Origin: an archaeon UBA583
Lineage (GTDB): Archaea > Nanobdellota > Nanobdellia > Woesearchaeales > UBA583
DNA length: 64,000 bases
Direction of reading: 5' to 3'
Assembly: GCA_002506365.1 (NCBI GenBank)
Contig: DAXK01000024.1
Coordinates: forward strand, 30,944-94,943
Part shown: one piece after another, positions 20,813-54,085 of the stretch
Numbering within the stretch: position 1 is the first letter of the stretch
Layout of the letters: each line of letters opens with the position of its first letter
Translations under genes and position numbers: made by a program
Notes under the pieces: model-generated
The model's database searches: none
The model's input: the letters and a program-made list of their open reading frames with translations, nothing else
Told to the model about the DNA's origin: nothing

Positions 20813-20833
20813 ATACAAATTAATATCATTTTC

Positions 20834-24753: not shown

Positions 24754-24836
24754 TTTTTCACTTGTTAAAAAATGGCACCATTTTCCATTGGAAAATCTGT
24801 GCCTCGTTTTGATGACATTGTCATCACAACGAATTT

Positions 24837-26402
24837 TTACTCATTACCTCCAGTTCTTTTTACAATTTTTCTTGTCATCATTGGCCTATTCTTTAACCAA
24901 TCAAAATCACAAGTTGTCCCAGTAATATCCCTCATTGAAGCTTTCCCAGCAAGTAATGTTGCAACTCTACTTGCACCCATACCCCAAGCAATTACAGTTT
25001 TCCCTCCTAAACCTAATGGTTCTAAAGTTTCTTGTCTAAAAATTCCAGAATTAATTAAAGCATACCACTTATCCATTTTTTCATCATAATAATGTGCTTC
25101 CATTGAAGGTTCAGTATAAGGATTAAAAGTTGGTTTAAATCTAATTTTATCAATACCTAATTTATTATAATAATCACGAACAAATCCCATCAAATGTGCT
25201 AAACTTAAATTATCTCCAATAATAAAACCTTCTGCTTGAAAAAACTCAGCTAAATGAGTTGCATCAATTGCTTCATTACGAAAATTATGAGCAACATAAA
25301 AATACTTCCCATCAACATTCTGACCTCCCTTTAATTTCTCACCTAATTCAGCAAGAGTTCTAAAAGTTGTAGCAGTTGAATGAGTTCTAAGCAATCTCTT
25401 TGAAGTAATATCTTTTGACCATTCCCCCTTAGGAGTATGTGCTTTCTTTAATCCTGATTCATGCATAATTTTAACTTTCTCAACTAATTGAGCAGGAACT
25501 TTCGCTGACCCATCCAAATAAAAAGTATCTTGTTCATCTCTAGCAGGATGATCTTGTGGAATCCACATTGAATCCATATTCCAAAAAGCAGACTCAACCA
25601 TTGGCCCCTCCATCTCAGAAAATCCCATCTCAACAAAAACATTCTTTAAAATTGAATTTGCTTCAAGCATAGGGTGAAATCTTCCAATATTATCATACCC
25701 TGCTGAAACATCAACATCATAATGTCTAAACTCAATATTTTTCAAATTATCAGATTTTAACATCTCAGGTTCTAAAGCTTCCGCCAATTCTAAATCAGAA
25801 TACTTCCCATCAATCTCAGAACATACACTTTGACCAAGATCAGTTAAAGAAAAAGTAAAACCCTTAATGGAAATTTCTTTTAAAAATTTAGGACGCCTTT
25901 TTAATTCATTAAAACTAACTTGTAAATCTTCAGATAAATCCTTAACTAAAATACCATCTTTAAAAGCAGATAAAGGATTTACAAAATCATCAACAAATTG
26001 TTTAGCATTTTCATTAGCAGTAAAAATTTGTTCATCTTCTTTTCTAATTGAAATTAAATTATTTTTCTTTAAAATACCAAGAGCTGAACCAACTAAAGAT
26101 TTATCTAATTTTAACTCAGACATCTTTTTTTCACCATCCAACAATTCATTTAAAAATGTAATTTCAGGTAATTCAGATTTTAAAAATTCCTCACCAAATT
26201 TATCTAAAACAATCTTTTTTTCTTCAAACTTAGAAATAGAAACATATCCTTTTTGTTCAAGTAATTGAACTCCAGTTGTAACTTCTGCAATATTTAACCC
26301 TATTTTTTCACAGATTTGAGAAATATCTCCAATCGAAATTAAAGGTAAAACTTTTCTCTCCAAAGGATGAAGAGAATAAATAATTTTCTTTAAATCAGTC
26401 AT
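24837..26402 (-). CDS. pheS: Phenylalanine--tRNA ligase alpha subunit, archaeal/eukaryal type
   Basis: 521 aa. Matches include HPARDEQDTFY, LLRTHSTATT, FRNEAIDATHLAEFFQAEG and GMGASRV. Confidence 0.9.
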   Translation of the reverse strand: MTDLKKIIYSLHPLERKVLPLISIGDISQICEKIGLNIAEVTTGVQLLEQKGYVSISKFEEKKIVLDKFGEEFLKSELPEITFLNELLDGEKKMSELKLDKSLVGSALGILKKNNLISIRKEDEQIFTANENAKQFVDDFVNPLSAFKDGILVKDLSEDLQVSFNELKRRPKFLKEISIKGFTFSLTDLGQSVCSEIDGKYSDLELAEALEPEMLKSDNLKNIEFRHYDVDVSAGYDNIGRFHPMLEANSILKNVFVEMGFSEMEGPMVESAFWNMDSMWIPQDHPARDEQDTFYLDGSAKVPAQLVEKVKIMHESGLKKAHTPKGEWSKDITSKRLLRTHSTATTFRTLAELGEKLKGGQNVDGKYFYVAHNFRNEAIDATHLAEFFQAEGFIIGDNLSLAHLMGFVRDYYNKLGIDKIRFKPTFNPYTEPSMEAHYYDEKMDKWYALINSGIFRQETLEPLGLGGKTVIAWGMGASRVATLLAGKASMRDITGTTCDFDWLKNRPMMTRKIVKRTGGNE

Positions 26403-42074: not shown

Positions 42075-43088
42075 ATGGGAAAAAAACAAAAACAACAAAG
42101 AAAAAATAACGATATGGGAATTCCATTAAAAGAACAAATTAAACCAATTTTCAAAGAAAGATTTCTACAAATGTTAGGAAGTGAACAAGAATATCAAAAA
42201 TTTGAAGATTGTATTTTAACACCACAAAGAAAATCATTTAGAATCAACTCATTAAGAGTTGAAGAACCAAAACAATTAGCGCAACAAATTAAAGATAAAG
42301 GAATTAAAATTAGTGAAGTTCCATGGTGTAAAAACGCTTACTTTACTGAATACGATAAAGAAGCAAGAAGTGACTTAGGAAATTTATACGAACACTTCAC
42401 AGGAAGAATTTATGTTCAAGAAGCAACATCCATGTCCCCACCAGAATTATTAGAAATCCCAGAATCAATTGACAATAATTTTAAAGTTTTAGATATGTGT
42501 TCAAGTCCAGGAAGTAAAACAACACAAATTGCTGACTTAATGAAAGGAGAAGGAATCTTAGTTGCTAACGAATTAGATTTTAAAAGATTAGGACCATTAA
42601 AAATCAACCTTGAGCGAGCAGGATATACAAATATTGTAATCACAAACCAAGATGCAAGTAGAATTCAAGGTGAAGAAATATTTGATAGAATTTGTTGTGA
42701 TGCACCATGTTCAGGAAGTGGAGTAATCAGAAAATCTCCTAAAACAATTAAAACATACAATCCTAAAAAATTACACCAAATTCAAAATTTACAAATCTCA
42801 ATTTTACAAAGAGGATTTGAATTATTAAAAAAAGGAGGAATTATTACATACTCAACTTGTTCAATTGACCCAGAAGAAAATGAATTATGTGTAAAAAGAT
42901 TTTTAGAAGAAAATCCAACAGCGATTTTAGAACAAGCAACATTACCAGGTTTAATTTTAAACAACAAATTAACTAAATTTTACAATACAGAAATTCCTAA
43001 AGAAATTACTGAAAAAACAATTAGAATTTGGCCACAAGATAATGATACAAATGGTTTCTATGTAGCTAAAATTCGAAAGTCTGAGTAA
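42075..43088 (+). CDS. NOL1/NOP2/Sun-family RNA (cytosine-C5)-methyltransferase
   Basis: VLDMCSSPGSKTTQIA, DRICCDAPCSGSGVIRKSP, GGIITYSTCSIDPEENE. Confidence 0.9.
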   Translation: MGKKQKQQRKNNDMGIPLKEQIKPIFKERFLQMLGSEQEYQKFEDCILTPQRKSFRINSLRVEEPKQLAQQIKDKGIKISEVPWCKNAYFTEYDKEARSDLGNLYEHFTGRIYVQEATSMSPPELLEIPESIDNNFKVLDMCSSPGSKTTQIADLMKGEGILVANELDFKRLGPLKINLERAGYTNIVITNQDASRIQGEEIFDRICCDAPCSGSGVIRKSPKTIKTYNPKKLHQIQNLQISILQRGFELLKKGGIITYSTCSIDPEENELCVKRFLEENPTAILEQATLPGLILNNKLTKFYNTEIPKEITEKTIRIWPQDNDTNGFYVAKIRKSE

Positions 43089-43162
43089 AATTACTCAGAC
43101 CTCCACGAACCATTGTGTTCGTGTGAGAGTCAATTTCTAAATCCATTGGATTTAAAATGATA
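43081..43162 (+). repeat. Structured intergenic element, copy 1 (three hairpins)
   Basis: H0 CTGAGTAA-aa-TTACTCAG overlaps the stop codon. ACCTCC follows. H1 is CACGAAC-cattgt-GTTCGTG (43104-43123), then TGAGAGTCAATTTC, then H2 TAAATCCA-t-TGGATTTA (43138-43154), then AAATGAT. Confidence 0.6.
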
Positions 43163-43263
43163 TAATAATTAAAATAAACAAAAAACTTAACAAATAAATT
43201 AATGATTAATTATTAAACTAATTTTTTAAAATAAAAATATAGTTTAATATTTTAACCAATATT

Positions 43264-43470
43264 TTAACCAATATTAGAAAATACATCAGTTACTTCATCT
43301 TTCTGAGACCCAATTTCTCCACCAATCATAACTGAAACAATATAAATTAAAATTATAAATAAAATTACACCAATAATTAATTTTCCCAACTCATCCATCT
43401 CAAGAGCACCTGACTTACTTTTTCTTAAACCATTATAATTTTTTAAAACTTTTAAACTTGTAAATAACAT
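43264..43470 (-). CDS. Small protein with class III (archaeal prepilin-like) signal peptide
   Basis: ..LRKSKSG/ALEMDELGKLIIGVILFIILIYIV fits the QxSxExxxL-type class III motif, with E and L at the right spacing, followed by a hydrophobic helix. A TATA-like box lies about 25 nt upstream. Confidence 0.4.
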   Translation of the reverse strand: MLFTSLKVLKNYNGLRKSKSGALEMDELGKLIIGVILFIILIYIVSVMIGGEIGSQKDEVTDVFSNIG

Positions 43471-43555
43471 AAAAATAAAAATAAAAATAACTTATAAAAA
43501 GATTTGCTGTATAAAATAAAAATAAAATTGAATTTGAATAAAAATATTTAAATTA

Positions 43556-44404
43556 TTAAATAATAAAAACCGAAAATTTACCCTTATTTAATTCCTTCTT
43601 TGCTCCCTCAACTAGATACCCAACAGGACCAATCACAAACTTATTAGCCTTTAAAACTAACTTAGGTTTATTAGACATAACCTTTGTATAAATTTGCATT
43701 GCTGATCCCATATCCATATCTGCTACATCAAATTCATCATCCTTTGAAGTTTCAATAGATGCAATTCTTAACTCACCTAATTCCTTTTTCAAATTCTCAA
43801 TTTCCTTATTTTGTTTCTTCCAATCATTAAAAAACTTTTCAGAAGTTCTAACAATTGAAGATTTATCAACTGAAAATACATCACAACTTTCTTTTAATAA
43901 AACTTCATTAGCATAAATTGCATCAAGCGCAAATTCATTAACAACATATTTTAATCTTACAACTCCATCTTGAATTTTTGAAGTTTCAACAATTTTAATT
44001 AAACCAATACCACCAGTAGACTCCATATGAATTCCTCCACAAGCCTCAATATCAGAATCTTCAACAGAAATAACTCTTAAAGTTTTCATAGGAATTGCTC
44101 CTCCTTGATACAAAGTAAAACCATATTTCTCTTCAGCCTTATCTCTTGATAACTCATCAATTTTAACTTTTTTATTTTCAAAAACTGTTTTATTTGCTAA
44201 TTTTTCAATTTCAAAAATTTCTTCCATTGTTAAATTATTATAATGAGTAATATCTAATGTCCCAAATTCAGGTTTTAAATTTGACCCATTTTGCCAAACA
44301 TGATTCCCCAAAACTTGTCTTGCACAATGATTAACAACATGAGTTGTTGTATGTAATCTTCTTAACTTTTCCCTATTTTCTAAATCAATTTTAATATTTA
44401 CCAT
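43556..44404 (-). CDS. alaX: AlaX-like alanyl-tRNA editing protein (or the C-terminal half of a split AlaRS)
   Basis: Zinc/editing motifs HTTTH (HxxxH) and CGGIH (CxxxH), then a coiled coil and a C-terminal domain. 282 aa. Confidence 0.7.
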   Translation of the reverse strand: MVNIKIDLENREKLRRLHTTTHVVNHCARQVLGNHVWQNGSNLKPEFGTLDITHYNNLTMEEIFEIEKLANKTVFENKKVKIDELSRDKAEEKYGFTLYQGGAIPMKTLRVISVEDSDIEACGGIHMESTGGIGLIKIVETSKIQDGVVRLKYVVNEFALDAIYANEVLLKESCDVFSVDKSSIVRTSEKFFNDWKKQNKEIENLKKELGELRIASIETSKDDEFDVADMDMGSAMQIYTKVMSNKPKLVLKANKFVIGPVGYLVEGAKKELNKGKFSVFII

Positions 44405-44434
44405 TTTTTTATATTTTTTAATTTTTTATATTTT

Positions 44435-44498
44435 AAAATTGACACCATAAACCATTGGTTTATCTGTGTCTCAATTCGATTACACAGTAATTGAATTT
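44435..44498 (+). repeat. Structured intergenic element, copy 4 (core), flanked by 47-bp direct repeats
   Basis: H1 ATAAACC-att-GGTTTAT, then CTGTGTCTCAATTC, then GATTACACAGTAATTGAA. This aligns with copy 2 (AATACACTGTATTGAA). The flanks 44388-44434 and 44499-44544 are near-identical. Confidence 0.55.
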
Positions 44499-44542
44499 AT
44501 TTTAATCTTTACCATTTTTTATATTTTTTAATTATTTTATAT

Positions 44543-44803
44543 TTAATAATTTAATAACATTCCAACTAATAAAAAAAGAACTCCCAAAATAACATAATTT
44601 AAACCATTTGCTAATTCAGGGAAATAAAATCCAAGTAAATCTGCTATTCCAAAAGAAATTAAAAACATTGCTAAAACAACTAAAGCAGAAATTTCTCCAA
44701 ACTTAATTAAATTTTTTTTAATCTTCTCACCAGCATAAGCTTTTGCAGCATCAACAACTTCAGCCTCAACTCTTTCAAAGATTCCCTTTTTTTCCTTAAC
44801 CAT
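44543..44803 (-). CDS. Small membrane protein, function unknown
   Basis: The track start at 44824 is TTG. The in-frame ATG at 44801-44803 (MVKEKKG..) sits about 27 nt from a TATA box. Two C-terminal hydrophobic helices are present. Confidence 0.5.
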   Translation of the reverse strand: MVKEKKGIFERVEAEVVDAAKAYAGEKIKKNLIKFGEISALVVLAMFLISFGIADLLGFYFPELANGLNYVILGVLFLLVGMLLNY

Positions 44804-44825
44804 AAAAAATAAAAAAATAATCAAG

Positions 44826-44835
44826 TATATAAATA
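44826..44835. promoter_or_regulatory. Single AT-palindromic TATA box (TATATAAATA) shared by divergent genes
   Basis: It is centred about 27 nt from the minus-strand ATG at 44803 and about 25 nt from the plus-strand ATG at 44855. The intergenic distance is only 51 bp. Confidence 0.45.
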
Positions 44836-44854
44836 TTATTAAACTCTAATTACT

Positions 44855-45454
44855 ATGACAACTTTAATTGCAACCGGAGCAGAATCAGAAATCCATAAAA
44901 TTAATGATACAACTCTAAAAAAAATCAGACTTGCAAAAACATACAGAATCCCAGAAATCGACTTAAAACTAAGAAAATTTCGTAATAGAAGAGAATTCAA
45001 AATATTACAAAAACTACACACCGAAAATATTTTAGTCCCAGAACCATACAAAATAATTGAAGATAAACGTATTGATGAAATAAGCTTTGAATTTGAATTT
45101 TTAACTGGACAAGTTTTAAAAAACTGTTTAACAAAAGAATTATTATTTAAAGCATTTAACCAAATAATTCAAATGCACAAATTTGAAGTTACACACTCAG
45201 ACCTTACAACATTAAATATGATTTGTCAAAATAATGAAATTTATTTAATTGATTTTGGACTTGGAGAATTTTCAGTAAAACCAGAAGATAGAGCAGTTGA
45301 CTTAAACCTATTTTTCAACTGTATCAAAAACGAGCACCCTGAATTTTATAAATATAAAGATGAATTAAAACAAATTTACTTTAAATTTAACCAAAGAGTA
45401 TTACACAATCTAGAAAAATTAGAACACAGAGGAAGAAATAAAAGTAAGAATTAA
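44855..45454 (+). CDS. bud32: Bud32/PRPK-type atypical kinase (KEOPS subunit)
   Basis: LIATGAESEIHK..., RNRREFKILQKL, HSDLTTLNMI..IYLIDFGLGE....EDRAVDL. Confidence 0.85.
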   Translation: MTTLIATGAESEIHKINDTTLKKIRLAKTYRIPEIDLKLRKFRNRREFKILQKLHTENILVPEPYKIIEDKRIDEISFEFEFLTGQVLKNCLTKELLFKAFNQIIQMHKFEVTHSDLTTLNMICQNNEIYLIDFGLGEFSVKPEDRAVDLNLFFNCIKNEHPEFYKYKDELKQIYFKFNQRVLHNLEKLEHRGRNKSKN

Positions 45455-45533
45455 TCTTTGATTAATTTTACCTCCACTAACCGTTGTGTTAGTGTGATAT
45501 TCAATTTATCAATACACTGTATTGAAAATGATA
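45449..45533 (+). repeat. Structured intergenic element, copy 2
   Basis: H0 AATTAATC-ttt-GATTAATT overlaps the stop codon. TTACCTCC follows. H1 is CACTAAC-cgttgt-GTTAGTG (45475-45494), then TGATATTCAATTTATC, then H2 TCAATAC-act-GTATTGA (45509-45525), then AAATGAT. Confidence 0.6.
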
Positions 45534-45548
45534 AAAATTAATATAAAA

Positions 45549-45935
45549 TTAATTTTCAACCTCATTACAAAGTTCAATTAAAACTCCACAAGGAGATTTA
45601 ATATAACTTACAATTTGACCCCACGGTTTCTTTTCAGGTTTACTTAATTCAACACCACCAAATTTTAAACATTTATTAAATGAATCCTCAACATTATCAC
45701 AAACTAAAGTAATTTCACAACCAATTAAACCCTTAGAACAAAAATTAATATTATCAAACTTAATTGGTAAATTAGAATCCAAACTAAAAGCTAAAACTGT
45801 ATGACCAGTTTCCAATTCCGCATAAGAATTATCTTCAAAAACAAACTTTCTCTTAAAACCAAAACTATTTTCAAAAAACTCAATAGTTCCCATAACATCA
45901 TTAACATAATAAATAGTATAACCAAACTTCACCAT
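45549..45935 (-). CDS. VOC-family (glyoxalase/bleomycin-resistance fold) protein
   Basis: FGYTIYYVNDVMGTIEFFENSFGF...AELETGHTVLAF...PWGQIVSYIKSPCGVLIELC. Confidence 0.75.
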   Translation of the reverse strand: MVKFGYTIYYVNDVMGTIEFFENSFGFKRKFVFEDNSYAELETGHTVLAFSLDSNLPIKFDNINFCSKGLIGCEITLVCDNVEDSFNKCLKFGGVELSKPEKKPWGQIVSYIKSPCGVLIELCNEVEN

Positions 45936-46000
45936 AAAAATACAAATTTAAAAGAAAATAAAAATATATATTACTACTAAAAATAATAAAATGAAAAAAT

Positions 46001-46993
46001 TTATTTAGAAAAAACTAATTTCATAATAATTTTGGCTAAATTCTCTGGATTATGACGAACTAGTTTATTTTCATCAATCAAATTACCCTTAACTAATTTA
46101 ATATTTCTCAAATTATCCTCATCAATCGCTACAGGATGTTTATTTTCTTTTTGATACTCTCCTAATGCAACACTTGCTGGCACATGAGTATTAGAAATCA
46201 CATGAGTAATTGGAGCTTTTAAATACTTTTCAATTTCACGTTTAAAATCTGAAACTACAAACCCATCCGTTTCCCCAGGCTTACTCATAACAGGACTAAT
46301 CAAAACTTTTTTAGCCCTAACATTTGAATTAATAGCTCGTCTAACCTTAGGAAATAATAAATTTGGTAAAATACTTGTATATAAATCACCTGGACCAAAA
46401 ATAATTATATCAGCCTCAACTAAAGCTTTTACTGCTGAAGGATTTGTTTTCCCCTCACTCTTTAAATAAATCTCATCAATTTTTTTATCAGGAGTTGTAT
46501 CAATTACCGCCTCAGAAACTAATTCACGACCATCATCACATTTTGCAATTAAAGTATTTTTCTCTAAACTTACAGGGATTACCTCTCCACGAATCCTTAA
46601 AATTCTACTAGCCTCACGAACCCCACTAGCAAAATCACCAGTTATCTTAGTAAGAGCTGTAATAATTAAATTTCCAAAATTATGATTATCCATTTGATCA
46701 TCAAATCTATACTGAAACAATTCAGCTAAAACTTTTGACTCATCAGACAAAGCAACCATACAATTTCTAATATCACCTGGGGGTAAAACTCCATATTGAG
46801 TAATTAACTTACCAGAACTCCCTCCAGAATCTAAAGTAGTGATAATTGCTTTAATATTTCTTGAAGAATCAGCATATTCTTTCAAACCTGAAAGAAGAGA
46901 AAATAATCCAGTCCCTCCACCAATACAAACAATTTTTTTGTTCTTAAGTGACTTTGGAACTTGTGTGTTTTTAGTAAAAAATCTACTAATCAT
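46001..46993 (-). CDS. YvcK/CofD-family (UPF0052) protein
   Basis: KIVCIGGGTGLFSLLSGLKEY, TTLDSGGSSGKL, PPGDIRNCMVAL. Confidence 0.8.
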   Translation of the reverse strand: MISRFFTKNTQVPKSLKNKKIVCIGGGTGLFSLLSGLKEYADSSRNIKAIITTLDSGGSSGKLITQYGVLPPGDIRNCMVALSDESKVLAELFQYRFDDQMDNHNFGNLIITALTKITGDFASGVREASRILRIRGEVIPVSLEKNTLIAKCDDGRELVSEAVIDTTPDKKIDEIYLKSEGKTNPSAVKALVEADIIIFGPGDLYTSILPNLLFPKVRRAINSNVRAKKVLISPVMSKPGETDGFVVSDFKREIEKYLKAPITHVISNTHVPASVALGEYQKENKHPVAIDEDNLRNIKLVKGNLIDENKLVRHNPENLAKIIMKLVFSK

Positions 46994-47082
46994 TAGAAAA
47001 TTAAATGTTTTAACCTATATAAAGCTAACTAAAAAATAAAATAAAAGTAAAATGAACTCTAAAAAAAAATAATTTAATAAAA

Positions 47083-47823
47083 TTACTTCTTTTTACCAAA
47101 CATATCCACAAACTCAGTTGGAAAGAAAATAAACTTTTGTGATGGATCAGGTGAAATATCATTAATAGTTTGTAAAGTTCTTAACTGCATAGCACCAGGA
47201 GTTACAGCCATAAGTTTAGCAGCAGCAGCTAAATTCTTAGCAGCCTCAACCTCTCCAGAAGACTTAATAATAATTCCTCTTTTTTCTCTCTCAGCCTCAG
47301 CTTCTCTAGCCATAATTCTCTTCATATCTGAAGGTAACTCAACGTGCTTTAACTCAACTCTCTCAACCTTTAATCCCCAAGCATCAGATGCTTTATCAAT
47401 AACTAATCTAATCTTGTCAGAAATTTGATCCCTATTTGCTAATAATTCATCTAATGAAACTTCACCAACAACATCCCTCATTGTAGTTTGAGATAATTGG
47501 CTCATAGCATAATAAAAATCCTCAACATTTAAAATTGACTTCTCAACATCTTGCACAAAATAATAAGTAACTGCATCAACATTCACAGACACATTATCTT
47601 TAGTAATACAATCTTGCTTTGGAACATCAATTGTCTTAACTCTTGTATCAACTTTTTGATAAGTTTGAAAAATTGGAATCACAATATTTAACCCTGGACC
47701 CATAAGTCCAGTATATTTTCCTAAAGTAAACCTTAGTCCTTGTTCATACTCATAAATAATTTTAATTCCTGATAAAACAAAAATTAAAACTAAAATCCCT
47801 AAAATAATAAACATTTCTGCCAT
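47083..47823 (-). CDS. SPFH/band-7 (stomatin/prohibitin-like) membrane protein
   Basis: N-terminal TM helix, then EYEQGLRFTLGKY, ITKDNVSVNVDAVTYY, and a C-terminal REAEAEREKR coiled coil. Confidence 0.9.
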   Translation of the reverse strand: MAEMFIILGILVLIFVLSGIKIIYEYEQGLRFTLGKYTGLMGPGLNIVIPIFQTYQKVDTRVKTIDVPKQDCITKDNVSVNVDAVTYYFVQDVEKSILNVEDFYYAMSQLSQTTMRDVVGEVSLDELLANRDQISDKIRLVIDKASDAWGLKVERVELKHVELPSDMKRIMAREAEAEREKRGIIIKSSGEVEAAKNLAAAAKLMAVTPGAMQLRTLQTINDISPDPSQKFIFFPTEFVDMFGKKK

Positions 47824-47937
47824 AATGAAAACTTAAAAAAATATACTTATAAAATAATGTAATTACTTTGAATAATAAAATTAAAAACTAAATTTTGTTT
47901 AATTAGAATAAATAAAAAATTGTATATTAATTAAAAA

Positions 47938-49011
47938 TTAATAAACACTTGAAATTCCTAAATCATTAGAAATTTTATTTCCAGACTCAATTTTTTCAGT
48001 CTTAGTCTCATGACCTAAAATATGAGGTGATTGAACACCAGTCATAATACTCATAATAGTTACTCTCTTTGCATGTGAGTTATCAACTCTAGCTCCCCAA
48101 ATTACATTCGCATCAGCATGTAATGATTGAGTAATTAATTGACCAGCTCTATCAATTTCTTCTAAAGTCATATCATCCCCACCAGTAATATGGATTAAAG
48201 CACCAGTTGCACCAGCGTAATCAATATCTAATAATGGATTTCCTAAAGCTTCTTCAACAGCCTCATCAACTCTTCTCGCAGTATCAGAAGTTCCCATACC
48301 AACAGTAGCTACTCCACCTGAAGTCATGATAGCCTTTACATCCGCAAAGTCTAAGTTAACTAATGAAGGAGTAGAAATAATTTCAACAATTCCCTTAATC
48401 ATAACAGAAACTAACTCATTAGCAACAGCAAAAGCTTGCTTAACAGGTAAATTTCCAGCAATTTTAACTAATCTATTATTATCAATAACAACCACAGTAT
48501 CAGCATTACCTCTTAATTGTTGTAATCCATACTCAGCTTTATCAATTCTAGCTCTCTCAATACTAAAAGGCATAGTAACAACTCCAATCACAATAGCACC
48601 CATGTCTCTTGCAATCTTTGCAATCATAGCAGCAGCACCAGTTCCAGTACCTCCACCCATACCAGCACAAACAAAAACCATGTCTGAACCTTTAATAGCA
48701 TCCTTAACTTCAGAAATAGATTCCTTAACAGCTTCAGCTCCCTTTTCAGGTCTTCCACCAGCACCTAATCCTCTAGTTACTTCCTTTCCAATTAAAATCT
48801 TCTTATCAGCGTTTTTTAATTTCAAATCTTGTAAGTCTGTATTAATAGCTACAATTTCTGCCCCGTTAATTCCTTTTGAATATAGCCAATCAACCATATT
48901 TTGACCTGAACCACCAACACCGATAACAGTCATTCTTGCTTGACCTACTTCGAATTGATCTAAGTTCTCCTCAGTCATATTTTGTAATGCGTCTTTTACT
49001 AAAAAATCCAT
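47938..49011 (-). CDS. ftsZ: Cell division GTPase FtsZ
   Basis: IGVGGSGQNMV, the tubulin signature GMGGGTGTGAAAMIA, and NLDFADV. Confidence 0.95.
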   Translation of the reverse strand: MDFLVKDALQNMTEENLDQFEVGQARMTVIGVGGSGQNMVDWLYSKGINGAEIVAINTDLQDLKLKNADKKILIGKEVTRGLGAGGRPEKGAEAVKESISEVKDAIKGSDMVFVCAGMGGGTGTGAAAMIAKIARDMGAIVIGVVTMPFSIERARIDKAEYGLQQLRGNADTVVVIDNNRLVKIAGNLPVKQAFAVANELVSVMIKGIVEIISTPSLVNLDFADVKAIMTSGGVATVGMGTSDTARRVDEAVEEALGNPLLDIDYAGATGALIHITGGDDMTLEEIDRAGQLITQSLHADANVIWGARVDNSHAKRVTIMSIMTGVQSPHILGHETKTEKIESGNKISNDLGISSVY

Positions 49012-49033
49012 TTTTTAAATTACCTTTAAAGTT

Positions 49034-49071
49034 AATTTCAAAATTTTTAAAAAAATCAAAAATTTGAAATT
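49034..49071. promoter_or_regulatory. Imperfect 14-15-bp-arm inverted repeat just upstream of ftsZ
   Basis: AATTTCAAAATTTTT-n9-AAAAATTTGAAATT, 23-60 nt upstream of the ftsZ ATG. The arms differ by one indel. Confidence 0.35.
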
Positions 49072-49180
49072 AGAGCTAAAACTTGTTTAGAGTCTTATAA
49101 ATTAAAAATTCAAGTTAATACTATTAAAAACATCGTATTCCCTTATCAGTAAATACTTACTAAAAAGTTACAAAAATAAG

Positions 49181-49199
49181 ATACTCAAAAAATGAGTAT
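49181..49199 (-). terminator. Hairpin plus T-tract downstream of scpB
   Basis: ATACTCA-aaaaa-TGAGTAT, 14 nt after the scpB stop, followed on the minus strand by CTTATTTTTG. Confidence 0.35.
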
Positions 49200-49212
49200 A
49201 AAAAATCACTAA

Positions 49213-50004
49213 TTATAATTTATTTTCTAATTCATCTTTTGAATTATCTTTTTGAGTTAAATCATTAGATGATTGTGTATCAGCTTCATCAATTAATTCT
49301 TCAACTAAATCTTCTTTTAATTCCTTTCCATTCTCTAACTCCTCAATTAAAGTATCTTCTGATTCTTCACTAGAACCATCATCTGAATTTTCATCAAAAT
49401 CCATAACTTGTGGCTTTTCAACTAAATCCTCACCTAACCCAATTTCTAAATTATCATCCTCCTTTGGAATATTCATTGGAACAGGTTCCTCTAAATGAGT
49501 ATCAATATTTTTATTTGCTGCTTTTCTAAAATCATCTTCCTCAATTTTAAAATAATCATAAAACTTCTTTGTAACCTTATAATATTTCCCAATACCCTTT
49601 TTTTGATAAGAAACAAACTTAGCCTTATACAAATAATCAACCTCAGTTTTAACATATTTTCCTAAAATCTCAGATAATCTTGTTTTAGTAATTGGTTGCT
49701 CATACGCAATAACAGATAAAACCTTTAAAACATTCCTAGGAATCTCAGTTCCAGAAATTAATGAAGTTACAACTTGATCATACTCAGAATGTAAAGTCAT
49801 TCTATACTTTCCATCTTCCTCCTCAATTAAAAAAGAAAACCCTTCTTTAAACTTTGGAACCAATTCTTCCATCGCATTTCTAACTAAAATTTCTGAATCA
49901 ATCTCTAAACTATCCATAAGTTCAGAAACGGTAATCCAATCACCATAAGAAAATAAAATTGCCTCAATTCTAGCTTTCACTTCCTCAAAATTTAAATCAT
50001 TCAT
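49213..50004 (-). CDS. scpB: Segregation and condensation protein B
   Basis: RIEAILFSYGDWITVSEL and VLSVIAYEQPITKTRLSEILG match ScpB winged-helix signatures. It has an acidic C-terminal tail. Confidence 0.75.
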   Translation of the reverse strand: MNDLNFEEVKARIEAILFSYGDWITVSELMDSLEIDSEILVRNAMEELVPKFKEGFSFLIEEEDGKYRMTLHSEYDQVVTSLISGTEIPRNVLKVLSVIAYEQPITKTRLSEILGKYVKTEVDYLYKAKFVSYQKKGIGKYYKVTKKFYDYFKIEEDDFRKAANKNIDTHLEEPVPMNIPKEDDNLEIGLGEDLVEKPQVMDFDENSDDGSSEESEDTLIEELENGKELKEDLVEELIDEADTQSSNDLTQKDNSKDELENKL

Positions 50005-50141
50005 ACTAATTAAATCATAAAAACATAATATAAAGTTGTGTTGTATAGCTACGATGACATCAAAATATAATTTATTATAACAATACTTTAAAAATTATAA
50101 AAATTATAAAAAAATAAATTTAAATATTAAAGCTTGAAAAA

Positions 50142-51005
50142 TTACTCTAAAACCTTCAAAAATTGATCTAATTCCATAAGTTCTGATTTTTTTAATAAAT
50201 CTGGACTAATAATCATAATAGCTACTCCATTAAACTTTTGAGTTCTCCCAGCCACATACTTTAAAAATTCTAAAGCAATATAAAATGAATTTAATCTAAA
50301 TAATAAATTACAATCAACCATAATTAATGGACTTGAACTTTGATCTAAAAAATTATCAACAAAAGTAATCAAATTATTTACTTGTAACGGATCCACAATA
50401 TCTGAATTTTCATCTAAAGAATCTTTTAAATAGTTCCCTTGAATATTTTTATCAATTTGGGATAACCAAGCAATCGGAGTTTTAGCTAACTTAAACCTAG
50501 TTCTCACTTCTTTTGGATTATCCTCACTAATTAAAAAACCTTGAAATCCTTGTTTTGTAGCTAAACTAAATTGTTCATACATAAAATGTCTATCCTTTTT
50601 ATAACTTAAATAAGAAGTCCCATTTGCTAAATTAATATCTAAATCTCCAGTAGCACTCCCCTCCTCAACTGGAATAAACTTAATCTTTACAAATTTACCC
50701 TTATAATATCTTAAAATTAAAAATTCTAATAATAACCCATAACTTAAAAATGCTAAACTAAAAAATACTAAAGAATAAATAATTCCTTCAGTAATTGCAA
50801 TTGTTCCCACAATATAATTTTGTGAATAATAAAAAAATCTTAAAAGTTCAGATAAAGAAAGCGAAATCGCAGCTGTCCCAATATATAACCAAGGTTTTCT
50901 ATGTTTTTCAGTATATACTTTTTGCATAATTGCAAAAACTAAATAAATTGCAACAATCGACATAATAAACGATAATAAAGAAACTGCTGAAACATTAAAT
51001 GCCAT
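50142..51005 (-). CDS. Membrane protein with a C-terminal DUF835-like domain
   Basis: The track start at 51014 is TTG. The ATG at 51003-51005 (MAFNVSAV..) has a TATA box about 29 nt upstream. Three or four N-terminal TM helices are present. The C-terminus (PLIMVDCNLLFRLNSF..FLKYVAGRTQKFNGVAIMIISPDLL) resembles archaeal DUF835. Confidence 0.55.
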   Translation of the reverse strand: MAFNVSAVSLLSFIMSIVAIYLVFAIMQKVYTEKHRKPWLYIGTAAISLSLSELLRFFYYSQNYIVGTIAITEGIIYSLVFFSLAFLSYGLLLEFLILRYYKGKFVKIKFIPVEEGSATGDLDINLANGTSYLSYKKDRHFMYEQFSLATKQGFQGFLISEDNPKEVRTRFKLAKTPIAWLSQIDKNIQGNYLKDSLDENSDIVDPLQVNNLITFVDNFLDQSSSPLIMVDCNLLFRLNSFYIALEFLKYVAGRTQKFNGVAIMIISPDLLKKSELMELDQFLKVLE

Positions 51006-51050
51006 AATAAACAAAATATATCAAAATTCCATTATAAATAATTAGTTTAA

Positions 51051-51058
51051 TTTATAAA
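51051..51058 (+). promoter_or_regulatory. TATA box of rps6e
   Basis: TTTATAAA is centred about 25 nt upstream of the ATG at 51080, implying a leaderless transcript. Confidence 0.45.
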
Positions 51059-51079
51059 TAGATATACATTAATATTAGT

Positions 51080-51487
51080 ATGGCTATCAAATTAGTTATG
51101 GGAACAAAATCTGGAAAAACATTCCAAAAGGAATTATCCAGTACAGAAGCTGAGTCTCTTTACGGAAGAGTTCTCGGGGAAGAATTAAACGGTGAAATGT
51201 TTGGTTACTCCGGTGTGAAATTATCCATCTCAGGTGGAAGTGACGCACAAGGATTCCCTATGAGAAAAGATTTAACTGGAACTAATAGAAAATCTTTATT
51301 AATCGCTAAATCCACTGGATTTAAAGGTAAATTAAGAGGAAAAAGATTCGGTGGTCTAAGAATTAAAAGAACTGTTGCTGGTAACACTGTTCATGAAAAA
51401 ACTCACCAATTAAATTTAAAAGTAACTGAAGGAGCTGACAAATTAGAAGCTGCTTTCGCACCTGCTGAAGAACCAGCAGCTGAATAA
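51080..51487 (+). CDS. rps6e: 30S ribosomal protein S6e
   Basis: KLVMGTKSGKTFQKEL...ISGGSDAQGFPMRKDL.GT.RKSLL...GFKGKLRGKRFGGLRIKRTVAGN. Confidence 0.9.
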   Translation: MAIKLVMGTKSGKTFQKELSSTEAESLYGRVLGEELNGEMFGYSGVKLSISGGSDAQGFPMRKDLTGTNRKSLLIAKSTGFKGKLRGKRFGGLRIKRTVAGNTVHEKTHQLNLKVTEGADKLEAAFAPAEEPAAE

Positions 51488-51585
51488 TAATAAATTTATT
51501 TATTATTATTTAACTTTTTAAAACTATATTTCTAAATTAAAAACAAAATAAACTTAAAATTTTTCTATGTTCAAATTAAATATAA

Positions 51586-51867
51586 TTAATCAATATCAGG
51601 ATTAATTTGATAAGGACCTTCAATATCTGGTCTAACACAAATTCCACCACCCTCCTCATATCCCTCAGGTTTTTCACAAATTAATCCTGGTTTGCAAGAA
51701 CTCCCATAACCACAAGGTTCACCAACCCCCAAATATACTACTGGTTGCTCTAAACCTTCCGCTTTAAGTTCATCAACACCAGATAAAGAAATATCAGATT
51801 TTGTAAAAATAAATAAAAATAAAGTAAATAAAATTCCAATTCCAACAATTATTTTCCAAAAACTCAT
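51586..51867 (-). CDS. Small secreted or anchored Cys-rich protein
   Basis: The track start is TTG. The in-frame ATG at 51865-51867 gives MSFWKIIVGIGILFTLFLFIF... The C-terminal part has four Cys (EPCGYGSSCKPGLICEKPEGYEEGGGICV). Confidence 0.5.
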   Translation of the reverse strand: MSFWKIIVGIGILFTLFLFIFTKSDISLSGVDELKAEGLEQPVVYLGVGEPCGYGSSCKPGLICEKPEGYEEGGGICVRPDIEGPYQINPDID

Positions 51868-52129
51868 TTTCAAGATTTAACTATAATTTTAATCCAAATT
51901 TTAAATTTAAATAAATTAAGAGTCACCAAACGATAAATAATAATAATATAATATATTCTAAAAATAAATAAAATCAAATAAAAATATATAAATAGACATA
52001 TGAAAATTTATAAAAATCATATAAACCAATTAAAAATAAAATTAAAATACCATAATTTTTAAGATTATATAAATTATATAACTAAACAAAATTAAATAAT
52101 ATTAAAAATAAAAAAATATTATTTAAATT

Positions 52130-53446
52130 ATGACTCAAAACTTAGCAATTTTATTTTCCGGTGGAAAAGATTCAAATTATGTAACATATTTAGCAAAACA
52201 GACAAATAATAATGTATCTTGCTTAATTACACTAAGTTCTAAAAATCCAAATTCTTACATGTTCCAATCTGTTGGAAATGAAATAATTAAAGTTCAAGCA
52301 AAATCTATGAATATTCCTCTGCTTGAATATCAAACTGAAGGTGAAAAAGAAAAAGAATTAGAAGATTTAAAATCAGCTCTAAAACTTGCAAAAGAGAAAT
52401 ATAATATTGAAGGTGTATGTTCCGGAGCAATTAAATCCGCATACCAATCAAGTAGAATTCAAGACATATGTAAACAATTAGATTTATTTTGCTACAATCC
52501 AATTTGGCAAATAGATGAAGATGAATATATGGACAAATTATTAGAAAATAATTTTGAAATCTCAATATTTGGAATTTTTTCATACCCATTTGAAAAAACA
52601 TTACTTGGAAAAACAATTAATCAAAACCAACTAAACAAATTAAAACAACTTAGATCTGAATTTGAAATATCAATAGCTGGTGAAGGTGGAGAATATGAAA
52701 GTTTTATTTTAGATAGTCCACTATTTTCACAAAAAATCCAAATAAAACAATTCAACTCAAAAATGGATTCTGAAAATTCAGGAATAATCACAAATTGTAA
52801 AGTTGAATTAATTAAAAAAGAAAATCAAAATAAAATAAATAAAGTTTTAACAAATCAAAACAATAAAGATAAAATAAATAATGAAAAAAATGAAGAAATA
52901 TTAGTTATTAATTTAAACAAAAAAGAAAATAAATTATATGAACTTGAATATGTAAAACCAATAACACAAATTATTCAATCTCAAAATAAAACATTTAAAG
53001 TTTTAAATTATATAGATTTAAATGATAAAATAATTACCAAATATAATAAGATAATTTTATCAGGAACACCACTAAAAGAATTTGAATATTTAAAACACTT
53101 AGATAAATTTAACTGGATTAAACAAAAAGAAAATTCAAATAAACACATATTAGGAATTTGTGCAGGTTGTCAAATTATTCAAAAAATATTTGGAGCTAAC
53201 GAAATAAATTTTTCAGAAATTGGACTAAAAAATCCAGAAATATTAATTCAAGATAAAATATTAAATAGAGAATCTCTAAAAGAAATTTATACTCTTCATT
53301 CAAAAAGTTTTCAAATACCTAAAGAATTTGAAATAATTGCAAAAACCTCAATTCCACAAATAATTAAATATAATAATATCTATGGAACTTTATTTCATCC
53401 AGAAGTTAGAAACCACCAAATTATTACAAACTTTTTAAACTTTTAA
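52130..53446 (+). CDS. Fusion protein: MJ0570/Dph6-like PP-loop ATP pyrophosphatase (N-terminal) plus class I glutamine amidotransferase (C-terminal)
   Basis: N-terminal half: LAILFSGGKDSNYV, SYMFQSVG, GVCSGAIKSAYQSSRIQDICKQL, IAGEGGEYESFILDSPLF. C-terminal half: ILGICAGCQII (nucleophile Cys, about nt 53150-53175) and GTLFHPEV (His-Glu, about nt 53393-53407), ending ..ITNFLNF. An N/K-rich linker lies between them. Confidence 0.8.
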   Translation: MTQNLAILFSGGKDSNYVTYLAKQTNNNVSCLITLSSKNPNSYMFQSVGNEIIKVQAKSMNIPLLEYQTEGEKEKELEDLKSALKLAKEKYNIEGVCSGAIKSAYQSSRIQDICKQLDLFCYNPIWQIDEDEYMDKLLENNFEISIFGIFSYPFEKTLLGKTINQNQLNKLKQLRSEFEISIAGEGGEYESFILDSPLFSQKIQIKQFNSKMDSENSGIITNCKVELIKKENQNKINKVLTNQNNKDKINNEKNEEILVINLNKKENKLYELEYVKPITQIIQSQNKTFKVLNYIDLNDKIITKYNKIILSGTPLKEFEYLKHLDKFNWIKQKENSNKHILGICAGCQIIQKIFGANEINFSEIGLKNPEILIQDKILNRESLKEIYTLHSKSFQIPKEFEIIAKTSIPQIIKYNNIYGTLFHPEVRNHQIITNFLNF

Positions 53447-53476
53447 AATCAATTACTTCAAACTATTAAAGAAAAG

Positions 53477-53487
53477 TTTTATAAATA
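53477..53487 (+). promoter_or_regulatory. BRE/TATA of the tfs gene
   Basis: GAAAAG followed by TTTTATAAATA, centred about 25 nt upstream of the ATG at 53507. Confidence 0.45.
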
Positions 53488-53506
53488 TAAAACTTAATAT
53501 TTTACT

Positions 53507-53824
53507 ATGGTAGATTTTTGTAAAAATTGTGGAGCCATCATTATGGGTTCCAAAGGAGATGAAGTAGATTGCCCAAGTTGTGGACAAGCTCAAAAAGCAA
53601 AAACAGAGATGAAATTTTCAGAAAAAGTTGCAAAAGTAGAAGAAAAAGAAATTGTTGACACTAACGAAGCTGCTGAAATTAACCCAATCACTGATGCTGA
53701 ATGCCCAGAATGTAAAAGCCCTAAAGCTTACTATTGGACAAAACAAACAAGAGCTGGTGACGAACCAGAAACACAATTTTTCAAATGTGTTGAATGTGCT
53801 CACCAATGGCGTGATTACAGATAA
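53507..53824 (+). CDS. tfs: Transcription factor S (TFIIS/RpoM-like cleavage factor)
   Basis: N-terminal Zn ribbon CKNCGA..CPSCG. C-terminal Zn ribbon CPECKS..TRAGDEPETQFFKCVECAHQW carries the acidic DE hairpin. Confidence 0.9.
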   Translation: MVDFCKNCGAIIMGSKGDEVDCPSCGQAQKAKTEMKFSEKVAKVEEKEIVDTNEAAEINPITDAECPECKSPKAYYWTKQTRAGDEPETQFFKCVECAHQWRDYR

Positions 53825-53907
53825 ATCTTTGATTTATATGTAATTAATTCGTGAAACATTGTTTCACGTGAATGTCAAATTTTCAAACCATTGATTTGAA
53901 AATGATT
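53821..53907 (+). repeat. Structured intergenic element, copy 3
   Basis: H0 ATAAATC-ttt-GATTTAT overlaps the stop codon. H1 is CGTGAAAC-att-GTTTCACG (53850-53868), then TGAATGTCAAATT, then H2 TTTTCAAA-ccattga-TTTGAAAA, then ATGAT. Confidence 0.6.
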
Positions 53908-54085
53908 TCAGATAATTTTAAAATTTTATAAATAAAAAATTTTAAATTTTTAAAAACTAATATTAAATAAATATAAAAATTAATTCTAAACATCTAAATG
54001 TAAAAAAATAAAAATATAACTTTATAATTATATTATTAATATAACTATAAAAAAAATAAAAAAATAAATTTAATTATTAAAAAAA

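What the first reader, a model, noticed from the sequence alone, without database searches (positions are those of the whole stretch)
43081..53907. Four-copy family of 65-90-nt multi-hairpin intergenic elements with compensatory stem changes
The copies are at 43081-43162, 44435-44498, 45449-45533 and 53821-53907, all in the same orientation. They share this order:
- hairpin H0, overlapping the stop codon of the upstream plus-strand gene in three copies; two of these read AATCTTTGATT
- (T)ACCTCC in two copies
- hairpin H1 with a 7-8-bp stem and a loop containing (C/A)(A/G)TTG
- G/TGTGA.A..TCAA(T)TT
- hairpin H2
- AAAATGAT in three copies

H1 of copies 1 and 2 differs by a compensated pair (CACGAAC/GTTCGTG versus CACTAAC/GTTAGTG). 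H2 keeps its structure with different sequences. That pattern argues for selection on a fold, whether RNA or a protein-bound DNA palindrome, rather than chance AT-rich similarity. Candidate roles are a small-RNA family, a 3' UTR stability or termination module, or a miniature mobile element.
Basis: seen in the sequence. Interest (0 to 1): 0.65.

Follow-up and report, generated by a model that had tools for sequence, protein, structure and literature searches.

The report
Insertional two-hairpin repeat in a DPANN archaeon
A tiny archaeon's genome carries a small family of about 70-base, two-hairpin DNA insertions at gene ends that come and go between close relatives, so they look like a miniature mobile repeat (similar to bacterial REP or MITE elements), not a conserved RNA gene.

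Summary
Three copies form a tight family, type A, at 43096-43166, 45467-45537 and 53842-53911.

Three more copies occur in 86-89% protein-identity relatives. Two of these sit at orthologous sites.

Across eight copies the two hairpins keep pairing through compensatory changes. 87.5% of cells are paired, 16 of 24 pairs change on both sides, and no shuffle of 500 reaches this.

Site occupancy is patchy:
- The Nop2 and Bud32 sites are filled only in this genome.
- The AlaX and TFS sites are filled in some relatives and empty in others.
- One site is filled in a relative and empty here.

No copy was found in relatives at or below about 70-80% identity, and there is no Rfam match.

All six independent sites carry the element on the same strand. 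Each copy abuts a local foldback hairpin at a gene's stop or start codon. Some copies are flanked by duplicated local sequence of 13 to about 55 bp.

Best reading: a lineage-specific, non-autonomous insertional hairpin element, probably moved through single-stranded DNA. No mobilising enzyme was found and the mechanism is unproven.

The parts
43096..43166 (+). Type A copy 1: CCTCC, H1 (CACGAAC/GTTCGTG), linker GTGAGAG, H2 (GUCA.UUU.UAAAUCC-AUU-GGAUUUA.AAA.UGAU). It lies directly after the stop of the Nop2/RsmB-like gene (42075-43088).
   Evidence: Covariance models: 94.2 bits and 82.7 bits. Fold z = -7.1. The site is empty in relatives L055-57, L058, L076, L071, L001, L059 and L083.
43079..43100 (+). 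H0 of copy 1: foldback GTCTGAGTA-aaat-TACTCAGAC containing the Nop2 stop codon and abutting the left end of the element.
   Evidence: A similar hairpin, TCTGAGTAGAATTATTCAGA, is present without the core in L058.
45467..45537 (+). Type A copy 3, after the Bud32 kinase gene (44855-45454). It fills the spacer to the convergent glyoxalase gene (45549-45935, minus strand).
   Evidence: 90.9 bits. The site is empty in L076, L071, L063 and L083.
45445..45469 (+). Left copy of a 25-nt flanking direct repeat of copy 3. It contains H0 (AATTAATC-ttt-GATTAATT) and the Bud32 stop codon. The right copy is at 45532-45556 and contains the glyoxalase stop codon on the other strand.
   Evidence: 20/25 identical, spacing 87. 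Empirical p about 0.08.
53842..53911 (+). Type A copy 4, after the transcription factor S gene (53507-53824).
   Evidence: 82.4 bits. An orthologous but strongly diverged copy is in L081:1934-2004 (45.2 bits). The site is empty in L082.
53812..53835 (+). Left copy of the flanking direct repeat of copy 4. TGATTACAGATAA is the last TFS codons plus the stop, followed by H0 (ATAAATC-ttt-GATTTAT). The right copy, TGATTTCAGATAA..., is at 53903-53926.
   Evidence: 12/13 identical in the core of the repeat; empirical p about 0.015.
44438..44505 (+). It lies between the start of the AlaX-like gene (43556-44404, minus strand) and the end of a 93-aa gene (44543-44824, minus strand).
   Evidence: 26.9 bits with model R1 and 77.3 bits with R2. 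An orthologous copy is in L076:8636-8703, with 36 consecutive identical nt over H1. The site is empty in L071, L073, L074 and L083.
44383..44440 (+). Left copy of an approximately 55-nt direct repeat flanking the type B copy. It duplicates the AlaX start codon, its first codons and its upstream region. The right copy is at 44494-44551.
   Evidence: Empirical p about 3e-4. L076 has an analogous repeat of a different sequence.
24771..24838 (+). It fills the 83-nt spacer between the pheS stop (24837) and the pheT start (24753), both on the minus strand.
   Evidence: 22.4 bits with R1 and 76.4 bits with R2. Sequence; genes.
24750..24775 (+). Foldback CCATTTTTT-cacttgtt-AAAAAATGG, joining the pheT start-codon region to the left edge of the type B copy.

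Best explanation
The copies belong to a lineage-specific family of small, non-coding, insertional palindromic elements. Functionally they are an archaeal counterpart of bacterial REP/MITE-type repeats.

The unit is two head-to-tail hairpins, each usually capped by C-ATT-G, joined by a conserved linker (G/C)TG...TCAAT. There are two subtypes, A and B. Some A copies also carry a left module, ATCTTTGATT, and a CCTCC box.

Shown here:
- Copies are gained or lost at gene boundaries among close relatives.
- All known sites carry the element on the same strand.
- Every copy sits immediately 3' of a local foldback that spans a neighbouring gene's stop or start codon.
- Several copies are bracketed by duplicated local sequence.
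- Hairpin pairing, though not stem sequence, is preserved.

Inferred:
- The element is mobilised in trans as single-stranded nucleic acid whose hairpins and loops are read strand-specifically. I favour an HUH/IS200-like or REP/RAYT-like route acting on one replication strand.
- It prefers sites just past an existing hairpin.
- Once inserted, it is tolerated or mildly useful. It supplies 3'-end hairpins, and at the Bud32 site also the stop codon, to + strand genes. It also supplies structured spacers between minus-strand genes.
For: Family and fold:
-. On 8 copies, 87.5% of cells are paired against 69% when shuffled and about 35% when the 3' partners are shifted by 1-3 columns (23-44% across the six shifts). 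16 of 24 pairs change on both sides.

Patchy occupancy:
- The Nop2 site is filled only in the window genome and is empty in relatives at 95%, 89%, 88% and 86% identity.
- The Bud32 site is filled only in the window genome.
- The AlaX site is filled in the window genome and L076, and empty in L071, L073, L074 and L083.
- The TFS site is filled in the window genome and L081, and empty in L082.
- The site upstream of a 98-aa gene is filled in L001 and empty in the window.

Lineage restriction:
- No copy in about 320 kb of relatives beyond those listed.
- No hits in JGI metagenomes with a 22-base pattern.
- Only chance hits in viral contigs.

Strand specificity:
- All 6 independent sites are on the same strand of the syntenic region.
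- Hairpins of at least 7 bp with a C-AYT-G triloop occur 7 times on + and 0 times on -.
- GC skew does not change sign across the window.

Junctions:
- A foldback of at least 6 bp abuts the left end in 8 of 8 copies. The intergenic null is 0.22 per site, and the combined p is about 0.01.
- Flanking duplications: copy 2 p about 3e-4, copy 4 p about 0.015, copy 3 p about 0.08.

Turnover:
- At the TFS site the stems in the window genome and L081 are almost entirely different yet still paired, while TFS itself is 85.5% identical in DNA. This fits turnover or replacement of family members better than slow drift.
Against: - No transposase, HUH protein or reverse transcriptase was found in the roughly 76 kb of this genome that could be read.
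- There are no terminal inverted repeats, no conserved target tetranucleotide, and no GTAG/CGTC tag.
- IS200/IS605 and REP elements make no target duplications, yet copy 2 has one of about 55 bp. The duplications vary in length, and for copies 1 and 5 they are not significant.
- Only 5 copies were seen in 64 kb, so genome-wide abundance is unknown.
- The 36-nt perfect identity of type B H1 between the window genome and L076 contrasts with 74% identity at AlaX third codon positions (0.743^36 = 2e-5). That points to purifying selection, i.e. a host function, or to recent homogenisation. A purely selfish, decaying insert does not predict either.
Confidence: 0.58

Rival explanations
1. The elements are primarily cis-acting RNA modules and spread by duplication or recombination, not by transposition. 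Type A would be a 3'-UTR hairpin cassette that protects or ends the mRNA of + strand genes in convergent pairs. Type B, read on the minus strand, would be a structured spacer or leader. Its last hairpin is followed by a U-run and by CCAUUUU, which can pair with the AAAAUGG start region of the downstream gene (pheT, AlaX or the 98-aa gene) and control its translation.
For: - All three type A copies in the window follow the stop codon of a + strand gene in the sense orientation, with the stop codon inside H0.
- All four type B copies lie 20-40 nt upstream of a minus-strand start codon, and a CCATTTT...AAAATGG foldback involves that start.
- Covariation is strong.
- Type B H1 is 100% conserved between the window genome and L076 while neutral sites are 74% identical.
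Against: - Types A and B have opposite sense relative to their neighbouring genes but the same chromosomal strand. One DNA-strand rule explains this more simply than two RNA roles.
- The orthologous genes in close relatives do without the element.
- No T-run follows type A on the + strand.
- There is no G-U over A-C excess to mark a transcribed strand.
- This reading does not exclude a mobile origin.
Confidence: 0.2
2. The elements are a family of independently transcribed small RNAs of about 65 nt, acting in trans, for example as guides or as protein sponges.
For: - The fold is compact, stable and covarying.
- Loop motifs are conserved (CAUUG).
- TATA-like boxes can be placed about 30 nt upstream of some type B copies on the + strand (sequence reading).
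Against: - No Rfam family matches, even at E up to 10.
- There is no C/D, H/ACA or k-turn signature.
- Type A copies lack a plausible promoter at the right distance.
- Presence or absence varies among close relatives, and nothing is conserved beyond about 86% protein-identity relatives.
- In 25% GC DNA, TATA-like strings are everywhere.
Confidence: 0.07
3. The elements are double-stranded DNA operator sites: nested palindromes bound by a dimeric regulator or chromatin protein.
For: - The 7-3-7 palindromes such as ATAAACC-ATT-GGTTTAT are perfect.
- Type B copies lie in promoter-proximal positions of minus-strand genes.
- The balance of G-U and A-C cells is compatible with a DNA-level constraint.
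Against: - Stem sequences differ freely between copies while only the pairing is kept. A sequence-specific DNA binder would conserve the half-sites, not the complementarity.
- The conserved part is the asymmetric centre (ATT, never AAT) and the single-stranded linker.
- Type A copies sit between convergent genes, where there is no promoter.
Confidence: 0.07

Closest known systems
Bacterial REP/BIME elements (repetitive extragenic palindromes, mobilised by RAYT tyrosine-HUH transposases)
   Same: - Both are short imperfect palindromes with 5-13 bp stems and short loops.
- Both are extragenic, mostly just downstream of coding regions and between convergent genes.
- Both are organised in families and subfamilies that differ by complementary stem changes.
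- Occupancy varies between related strains.
- Both may be transcribed as 3'-UTR hairpins.
The REP features are taken from PMC3733652.
   Different: - There is no GTAG or CGTC terminal tag. CCTC occurs in only 2 of 8 copies.
- The two hairpins are head-to-tail, an arrangement that is rare or absent among REP dimers (PMC3733652).
- The elements are AT-rich, not GC-rich.
- The host is archaeal (DPANN).
- Some copies have flanking duplications.
- No RAYT was seen in the 76 kb available.
MITEs (miniature inverted-repeat transposable elements, for example the Sulfolobus SM elements or the Neisseria Correia elements)
   Same: - Both are small, non-coding and multi-copy.
- Both show insertion polymorphism between relatives.
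- Both can be flanked by direct repeats of target sequence.
   Different: - There are no terminal inverted repeats. The left end reads ACCTCCAC... or GACACC..., and the right end reads ...GAAAATGAT or ...AATTTA.
- The flanking repeats vary from none detectable to about 55 bp, with no fixed length.
IS200/IS605-family derivatives (PATEs) and single-strand transposition
   Same: - Both have sub-terminal hairpins in the same orientation at both ends.
- Recognition appears to be strand-specific.
- Orientation is uniform along one replichore, as reported for IS608 and ISDra2 (Ton-Hoang et al. 2010, cited from memory).
   Different: - Those elements make no target duplication and insert 3' of a fixed tetra- or pentanucleotide. 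Neither holds here.
- The size here is about 65-90 nt, against several hundred.
- No TnpA or TnpB was found nearby.
Mosaic structured repeats such as pneumococcal BOX/RUP and Rickettsia palindromic elements (RPE)
   Same: - Both have a modular build. Here the left module, CCTCC box, H1 and H2 are present in different combinations.
- Both form stable folds.
- Both can overlap the ends of reading frames. The Bud32 stop codon lies in inserted or duplicated sequence.
   Different: - There is no sequence similarity.
- Those families are bacterial.
- RPEs insert in-frame inside genes, which is not seen here.
IS1634/IS1549-type insertion sequences that create long, variable-length direct repeats (cited from memory; a paper search returned the phrase only in Mycoplasma and IS4-family papers, none of which I opened)
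   Same: Target duplications are long and vary in length.
   Different: Those are autonomous DDE elements with inverted terminal repeats. Nothing of the kind is visible here.

Membership tests
REP (GTAG/CGTC palindromic repeats) | Short extragenic imperfect palindrome, multi-copy, mostly downstream of genes | tested here: met
   There are 5 copies in 64 kb, all intergenic, and 3 of them lie directly after stop codons.
REP (GTAG/CGTC palindromic repeats) | Unpaired GTAG or CGTC (TGTC/CCTC) tetranucleotide at one end of the hairpin in most members (PMC3733652) | tested here: not met
   In alignment A5, CCTC precedes H1 in only 2 of 8 copies. The others read AATT, TATC, ACAC or GCAC. There is no GTAG on either strand.
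REP (GTAG/CGTC palindromic repeats) | Dimers mainly head-to-head or tail-to-tail; head-to-tail dimers rare (PMC3733652) | tested here: not met
   H1 and H2 are head-to-tail in 8 of 8 copies. Both loops read C-ATT-G on the same strand.
REP (GTAG/CGTC palindromic repeats) | Cognate RAYT (Y1/HUH transposase) gene flanked by the repeats | tested here: inconclusive
   None was found among the window genes scanned or already annotated. Only about 76 kb of the genome was accessible.
MITE | Terminal inverted repeats matching those of a parent insertion sequence | tested here: not met
   The termini read off searches are not complementary. The only inverted repeats are the internal hairpins.
MITE | Target-site duplication of fixed length | tested here: not met
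   The repeats are about 55, 13-24 and 9-25 nt, and are not significant at two copies.
MITE | Small, non-coding, with presence/absence polymorphism | tested here: met
IS200/IS605-derived element (PATE) | Insertion without target duplication, 3' of a conserved tetra- or pentanucleotide | tested here: not met
   The left flanks differ (TCAGA, TTTTA, AAATT, AAATG). Copy 2 and its L076 ortholog carry long flanking repeats.
IS200/IS605-derived element (PATE) | Hairpins at both ends on one strand, with orientation tied to the replication strand | tested here: inconclusive
   The hairpin layout fits, and 6 of 6 sites are on one strand with GC skew of one sign. The replication direction is not known.
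C/D-box or k-turn (L7Ae-binding) sRNA | C box RUGAUGA and D box CUGA, or tandem sheared G.A pairs next to a 3-nt bulge | tested here: not met
   No such boxes occur in any copy. UCA and UGA pair as Watson-Crick base pairs at the base of H2. There is no Rfam snoRNA or k-turn hit on the elements.
Group II intron 3' fragment (domains V-VI), which inserts after terminator hairpins | 34-nt domain V with the AGC/CGC triad, a 2-nt 3' bulge and a GNRA loop; domain VI with a bulged A | tested here: not met
   No Rfam group II hit at E up to 10. H1 has no triad and has a triloop. The bulges of H2 are on the 5' strand.
tRNA or tRNA-like element | Cloverleaf recognised by ARAGORN | tested here: not met
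   No tRNA or tmRNA was found in the window.
Intrinsic-terminator-like 3' hairpin | Hairpin directly followed by a T-run on the transcribed strand | tested here: not met
   No T-run follows type A on the + strand. The only terminator-like call is H0 of copy 1 read on the minus strand. Type B read on the minus strand has T4-6 after its last hairpin. Archaeal termination rules are not covered by the scan.

The most novel reading that the evidence does not exclude
This would be a previously undescribed archaeal mobile system: a hairpin element of about 70 nt that homes, strand-specifically, to the position just 3' of hairpins at gene starts and stops.

It would move by a route that leaves long, variable duplications of the target. 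Two candidates are an RNA-mediated, target-primed process with 5' truncation, and a replication-fork template-switch process driven by an unknown enzyme.

Its H1 hairpin would be kept by selection because the host now uses it, for example to gate translation of pheT and AlaX or to finish mRNAs.

The duplications at orthologous sites in two genomes match within each genome but differ between genomes. That would then reflect repeated re-insertion at the same site.
Probability: 0.15. Interest if true: 0.75.

Novelty: new variant of a known kind. Interest (0 to 1): 0.45.

Why it matters
Small palindromic repeats of the REP/MITE kind are well studied in bacteria but hardly described in DPANN archaea, whose genomes are tiny and usually thought to be streamlined.

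A structured element that still moves, or recently moved, in such a genome raises several points:
- It rewrites gene ends, supplying stop codons, duplicating promoters and start regions, and splitting the pheS-pheT junction.
- It shows that these genomes are not free of selfish or exapted repeats.
- It gives a handle on replication-strand biology and on mRNA 3'-end formation in organisms that cannot yet be grown alone.
- It is a warning for RNA-gene hunting, because strong covariation here does not identify a conserved RNA gene.

Tried and rejected
- Rfam at gathering thresholds over the whole window, and at E up to 10 over 43050-45600: nothing on the elements.
- ARAGORN: no tRNA.
- k-turn, C/D-box, H/ACA, hammerhead and group II domain V/VI readings were checked against the sequences by eye and rejected, because the defining boxes or bulges are absent.
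- Pattern scans of viral contigs: 43 hits for the type A pattern, all chance by covariance-model score. There were 0 hits for the type B pattern.
- A 22-base type A pattern in JGI metagenomes: 0 hits.
- The Bud32-based metagenome scan gave only relatives at or below 71% identity, without the element.
- The hairpin TAAATCC-act-GGATTTA inside the S6e gene (51307-51323) looked like a copy. It encodes the conserved AKSTGF stretch and scores only 16-18 bits, so it is treated as chance.
- G-U versus A-C counting to call the transcribed strand was uninformative, at 4 against 5.
- The search for a transposase or reverse transcriptase in the window found none (and the precomputed Pfam annotations).
- Extending the contig by about 12 kb gave no further copy.
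- A leader-peptide reading of the duplicated AlaX start (ATG GTA AAG ... TAA, 11 codons) was rejected, because the L076 ortholog has lost that ATG.
- The bacterial promoter/terminator scan added nothing decisive.


Full report
**Setting.** The window is 25% GC, and GC skew has one sign throughout. Most genes are on the minus strand. The gene content is archaeal: transcription factor S, ribosomal protein S6e, Bud32, diphthamide synthase, PheRS alpha and beta, and FtsZ. The nearest public relatives are Nanoarchaeota/Woesearchaeota-type DPANN metagenome-assembled genomes. The same genome occurs in JGI 3300003107, Logan SRR1023996 and ENA ERZ922519.

**Check of the observation.**
- The four stretches are as described.
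- The copies after the Nop2-like gene (core 43096-43166), Bud32 (45467-45537) and TFS (53842-53911) share 83% column identity.
- Each folds into H0, H1 and H2.
GUCA.UUU pairs with AAA.UGAU around a variable 7-bp upper stem. The conserved TCAATTT and AAAATGAT are therefore the two sides of one helix, not k-turn strands.
- R1 also finds a fifth copy at 24771-24838, at 22.4 bits.
- These two, with a copy in relative L001 (25.5 bits), form a subtype, type B. It reads GRCAC-C-stem-ATT-stem-CT-GTGYC, then TC, then a long H2.
- No Rfam family matches and there is no tRNA in the window.

**Related genomes.** I fetched orthologous loci through Nop2, Bud32 and TFS homologues. Occupancy by site is as follows.

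| Site | Filled | Empty |
|---|---|---|
| After Nop2 | Window genome only | Relatives at 95% (L055-57), 89% (L058), 88% (L076, L071, L073), 86% (L001, L059-62), and L083 |
| After Bud32 | Window genome only | L076, L071, L083, L063 |
| Upstream of AlaX | Window genome; L076:8636-8703 (30.8 bits) | L071, L073, L074 (19-nt spacer); L083 |
| After TFS | Window genome; L081:1934-2004 (45.2 bits) | L082 |
| Upstream of a 98-aa gene | L001 | Window (37743-37817) |

- At the Nop2 site, L058 keeps only an H0-like hairpin.
- At the Bud32 site, the C-terminus and stop codon in the window diverge from the relatives exactly where H0 begins.
- A model built from all eight copies (R2) finds no further copy in the window, in 319 kb of relatives, or in L083.
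- The family is therefore low-copy in the sequence available, confined to a narrow lineage, and patchy in occupancy.

**Fold.** I tested the two-hairpin structure on the eight-copy alignment A5; results are.
- 87.5% of cells are paired, against 69% in column shuffles and about 35% when the 3' partners are shifted by 1-3 columns (23-44% across the six shifts).
- 16 of 24 pairs show changes on both sides.
- The covariation score is 0.51 against 0.17, and 0 of 500 shuffles reach it.
- The loops are conserved and asymmetric. In the window, hairpins of at least 7 bp with a C-AYT-G triloop occur 7 times on the + strand and never on the minus strand. One of the seven, inside the S6e gene, is judged to be chance.
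- G-U cells (4) and A-C cells (5) are balanced, so the data do not say which strand, or whether RNA or DNA, folds.

**Junctions.** Three features stand out.

1. *Left-end foldback.* Every copy abuts, at its left end, a foldback of at least 6 bp made of local sequence.
   - The foldback spans the neighbouring gene's stop codon in the window's type A copies (in L081 it starts just after the stop) and the start codon in type B (CCATTTT...AAAATGG).
   - This holds for 8 of 8 copies.
   - The null is 0.22 per site for intergenic positions, and the combined p is about 0.01.
   - At the Nop2 site a similar hairpin exists without the core in L058. This suggests the hairpin is the target, not a part of the element.

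2. *Flanking duplications.* Several copies are flanked by duplicated local sequence.
   - About 55 nt, including the AlaX start codon and upstream region, around copy 2 (p about 3e-4).
   - TGATTWCAGATAA, the last TFS codons plus the stop, around copy 4 (p about 0.015).
   - A 25-nt hairpin holding both convergent stop codons around copy 3 (p about 0.08).
   - Nothing significant at copies 1 and 5.
   - At the AlaX site the duplicated segments are alike within each genome but differ between the window genome and L076. This needs either concerted evolution or repeated insertion at one site.

3. *One strand.* All six independent sites carry the element on the same strand of the syntenic region. 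Type A is sense to its upstream gene and type B is antisense to its neighbours.

**Rates.**
- Between the window genome and L076, the 36 nt that include type B H1 are identical, while AlaX third codon positions are 74% identical (0.743^36 = 2e-5).
- H2 of the same element has changed at 8 positions, with pairing largely kept.
- Between the window genome and L081, the TFS-site element keeps its junctions and linker. Nearly every stem base differs and yet still pairs, while TFS itself is 85.5% identical in DNA.
- The family thus shows both strong local constraint and rapid stem turnover.

**Interpretation.** Five things point to a non-autonomous insertional element of the REP/MITE kind, not a conserved RNA gene:
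- patchy occupancy;
- restriction to a narrow lineage;
- a modular build (left module ATCTTTGATT, CCTCC box, H1, H2);
- position at gene boundaries;
- the local duplications.

Three further things favour recognition of a single-stranded hairpin form and a link to one replication strand, as in IS200/IS605 and REP/RAYT systems:
- strand uniformity irrespective of gene direction;
- asymmetric conserved loops with free stem sequence;
- insertion next to hairpins.

That step is inferred, and several findings speak against it. No HUH enzyme, other transposase or reverse transcriptase was found in the readable 76 kb. There is no terminal tag or fixed target. The long, variable duplications are not what those systems produce.

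A cis-RNA role is compatible with the data and may explain the conserved H1. It could be a 3' hairpin cassette for type A, or a spacer that can pair with the start codon for type B read on the minus strand. It does not by itself explain the common strand or the gains and losses. The trans-sRNA and duplex-operator readings are weaker, for the reasons given under the rival explanations.

**Comparison with known families.** The closest analogues are bacterial REP/BIME elements. Their features, taken from PMC3733652, are short palindromes, a position mostly downstream of genes, subfamilies that differ by complementary stem changes, and variation between strains. The defining GTAG/CGTC tag and the head-to-head dimer habit are not met here, so this is not a member of those families. 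MITE membership fails on terminal inverted repeats and fixed duplications. IS200/IS605-derivative membership fails on the absence of duplications and on the lack of a fixed target. The k-turn/C-D, group II domain V/VI and tRNA readings fail their defining features.

**Verdict.** The best label is a lineage-specific two-hairpin insertional repeat, a new variant of a known kind of element in an unusual host. The mobilising mechanism is unknown, and there are some hints of host use.

Noticed in passing
window 5627-20818 (-) and 601-5634 (-): There are two giant adjacent ORFs of 5063 aa and 1677 aa. The only recorded Pfam hit is a faint Big_13 on the larger one. They take up almost a third of the window in a small-genome archaeon and are probably surface or adhesion proteins.
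   Followed up: no
window 22127-22975 (-); also L080:24228-25034: Proteins with GGDEF diguanylate-cyclase domains are encoded in this DPANN genome. Cyclic-di-GMP signalling is generally regarded as bacterial.
   Followed up: no
window 43089-43263 versus L001:11021-11900 and L059:2270-3160: Between Nop2 and the 68-aa gene, relatives at 86% identity carry two extra genes, a Cupin_2 gene and a 141-aa ORF. L071 and L083 carry other genes there. In the window this interval holds only the type A element, so the site is a hotspot of gene turnover.
   Followed up: partly
window 43246-43269: An exact tandem duplication, AATATTTTAACC x2, overlaps the stop codon and last codons of the 68-aa minus-strand gene.
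   Followed up: no
window 52130-53446 versus L081:211-1529 and L082:3442-4694: Diphthamide synthase and a class-I glutamine amidotransferase are fused into one 438-aa ORF in the window. In two relatives they are separate, adjacent or overlapping genes.
   Followed up: no
window 44494-44530 (minus strand): The duplicated AlaX start region creates an 11-codon pseudo-ORF, ATG GTA AAG ATT AAA ATA AAT TCA ATT ACT GTG TAA, that runs into the element. In L076 the corresponding ATG has been deleted.
   Followed up: partly
window 51483-51510: The S6e gene, the one + strand gene of a convergent pair in the 41000-55500 stretch that lacks the element, ends in its own 12-bp AT-only hairpin, AATAATAATAAA-ttta-TTTATTATTATT, which overlaps the stop codon. 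Stop-codon hairpins may be a general habit of this genome and the natural target of the element.
   Followed up: partly
window 61311-61652 versus L078: A second strain, from Logan ERR13834999, lacks the 113-aa gene between the DNA ligase and patatin genes.
   Followed up: no
whole window: No tRNA gene and no Rfam family at gathering score were found in 64 kb.
   Followed up: no
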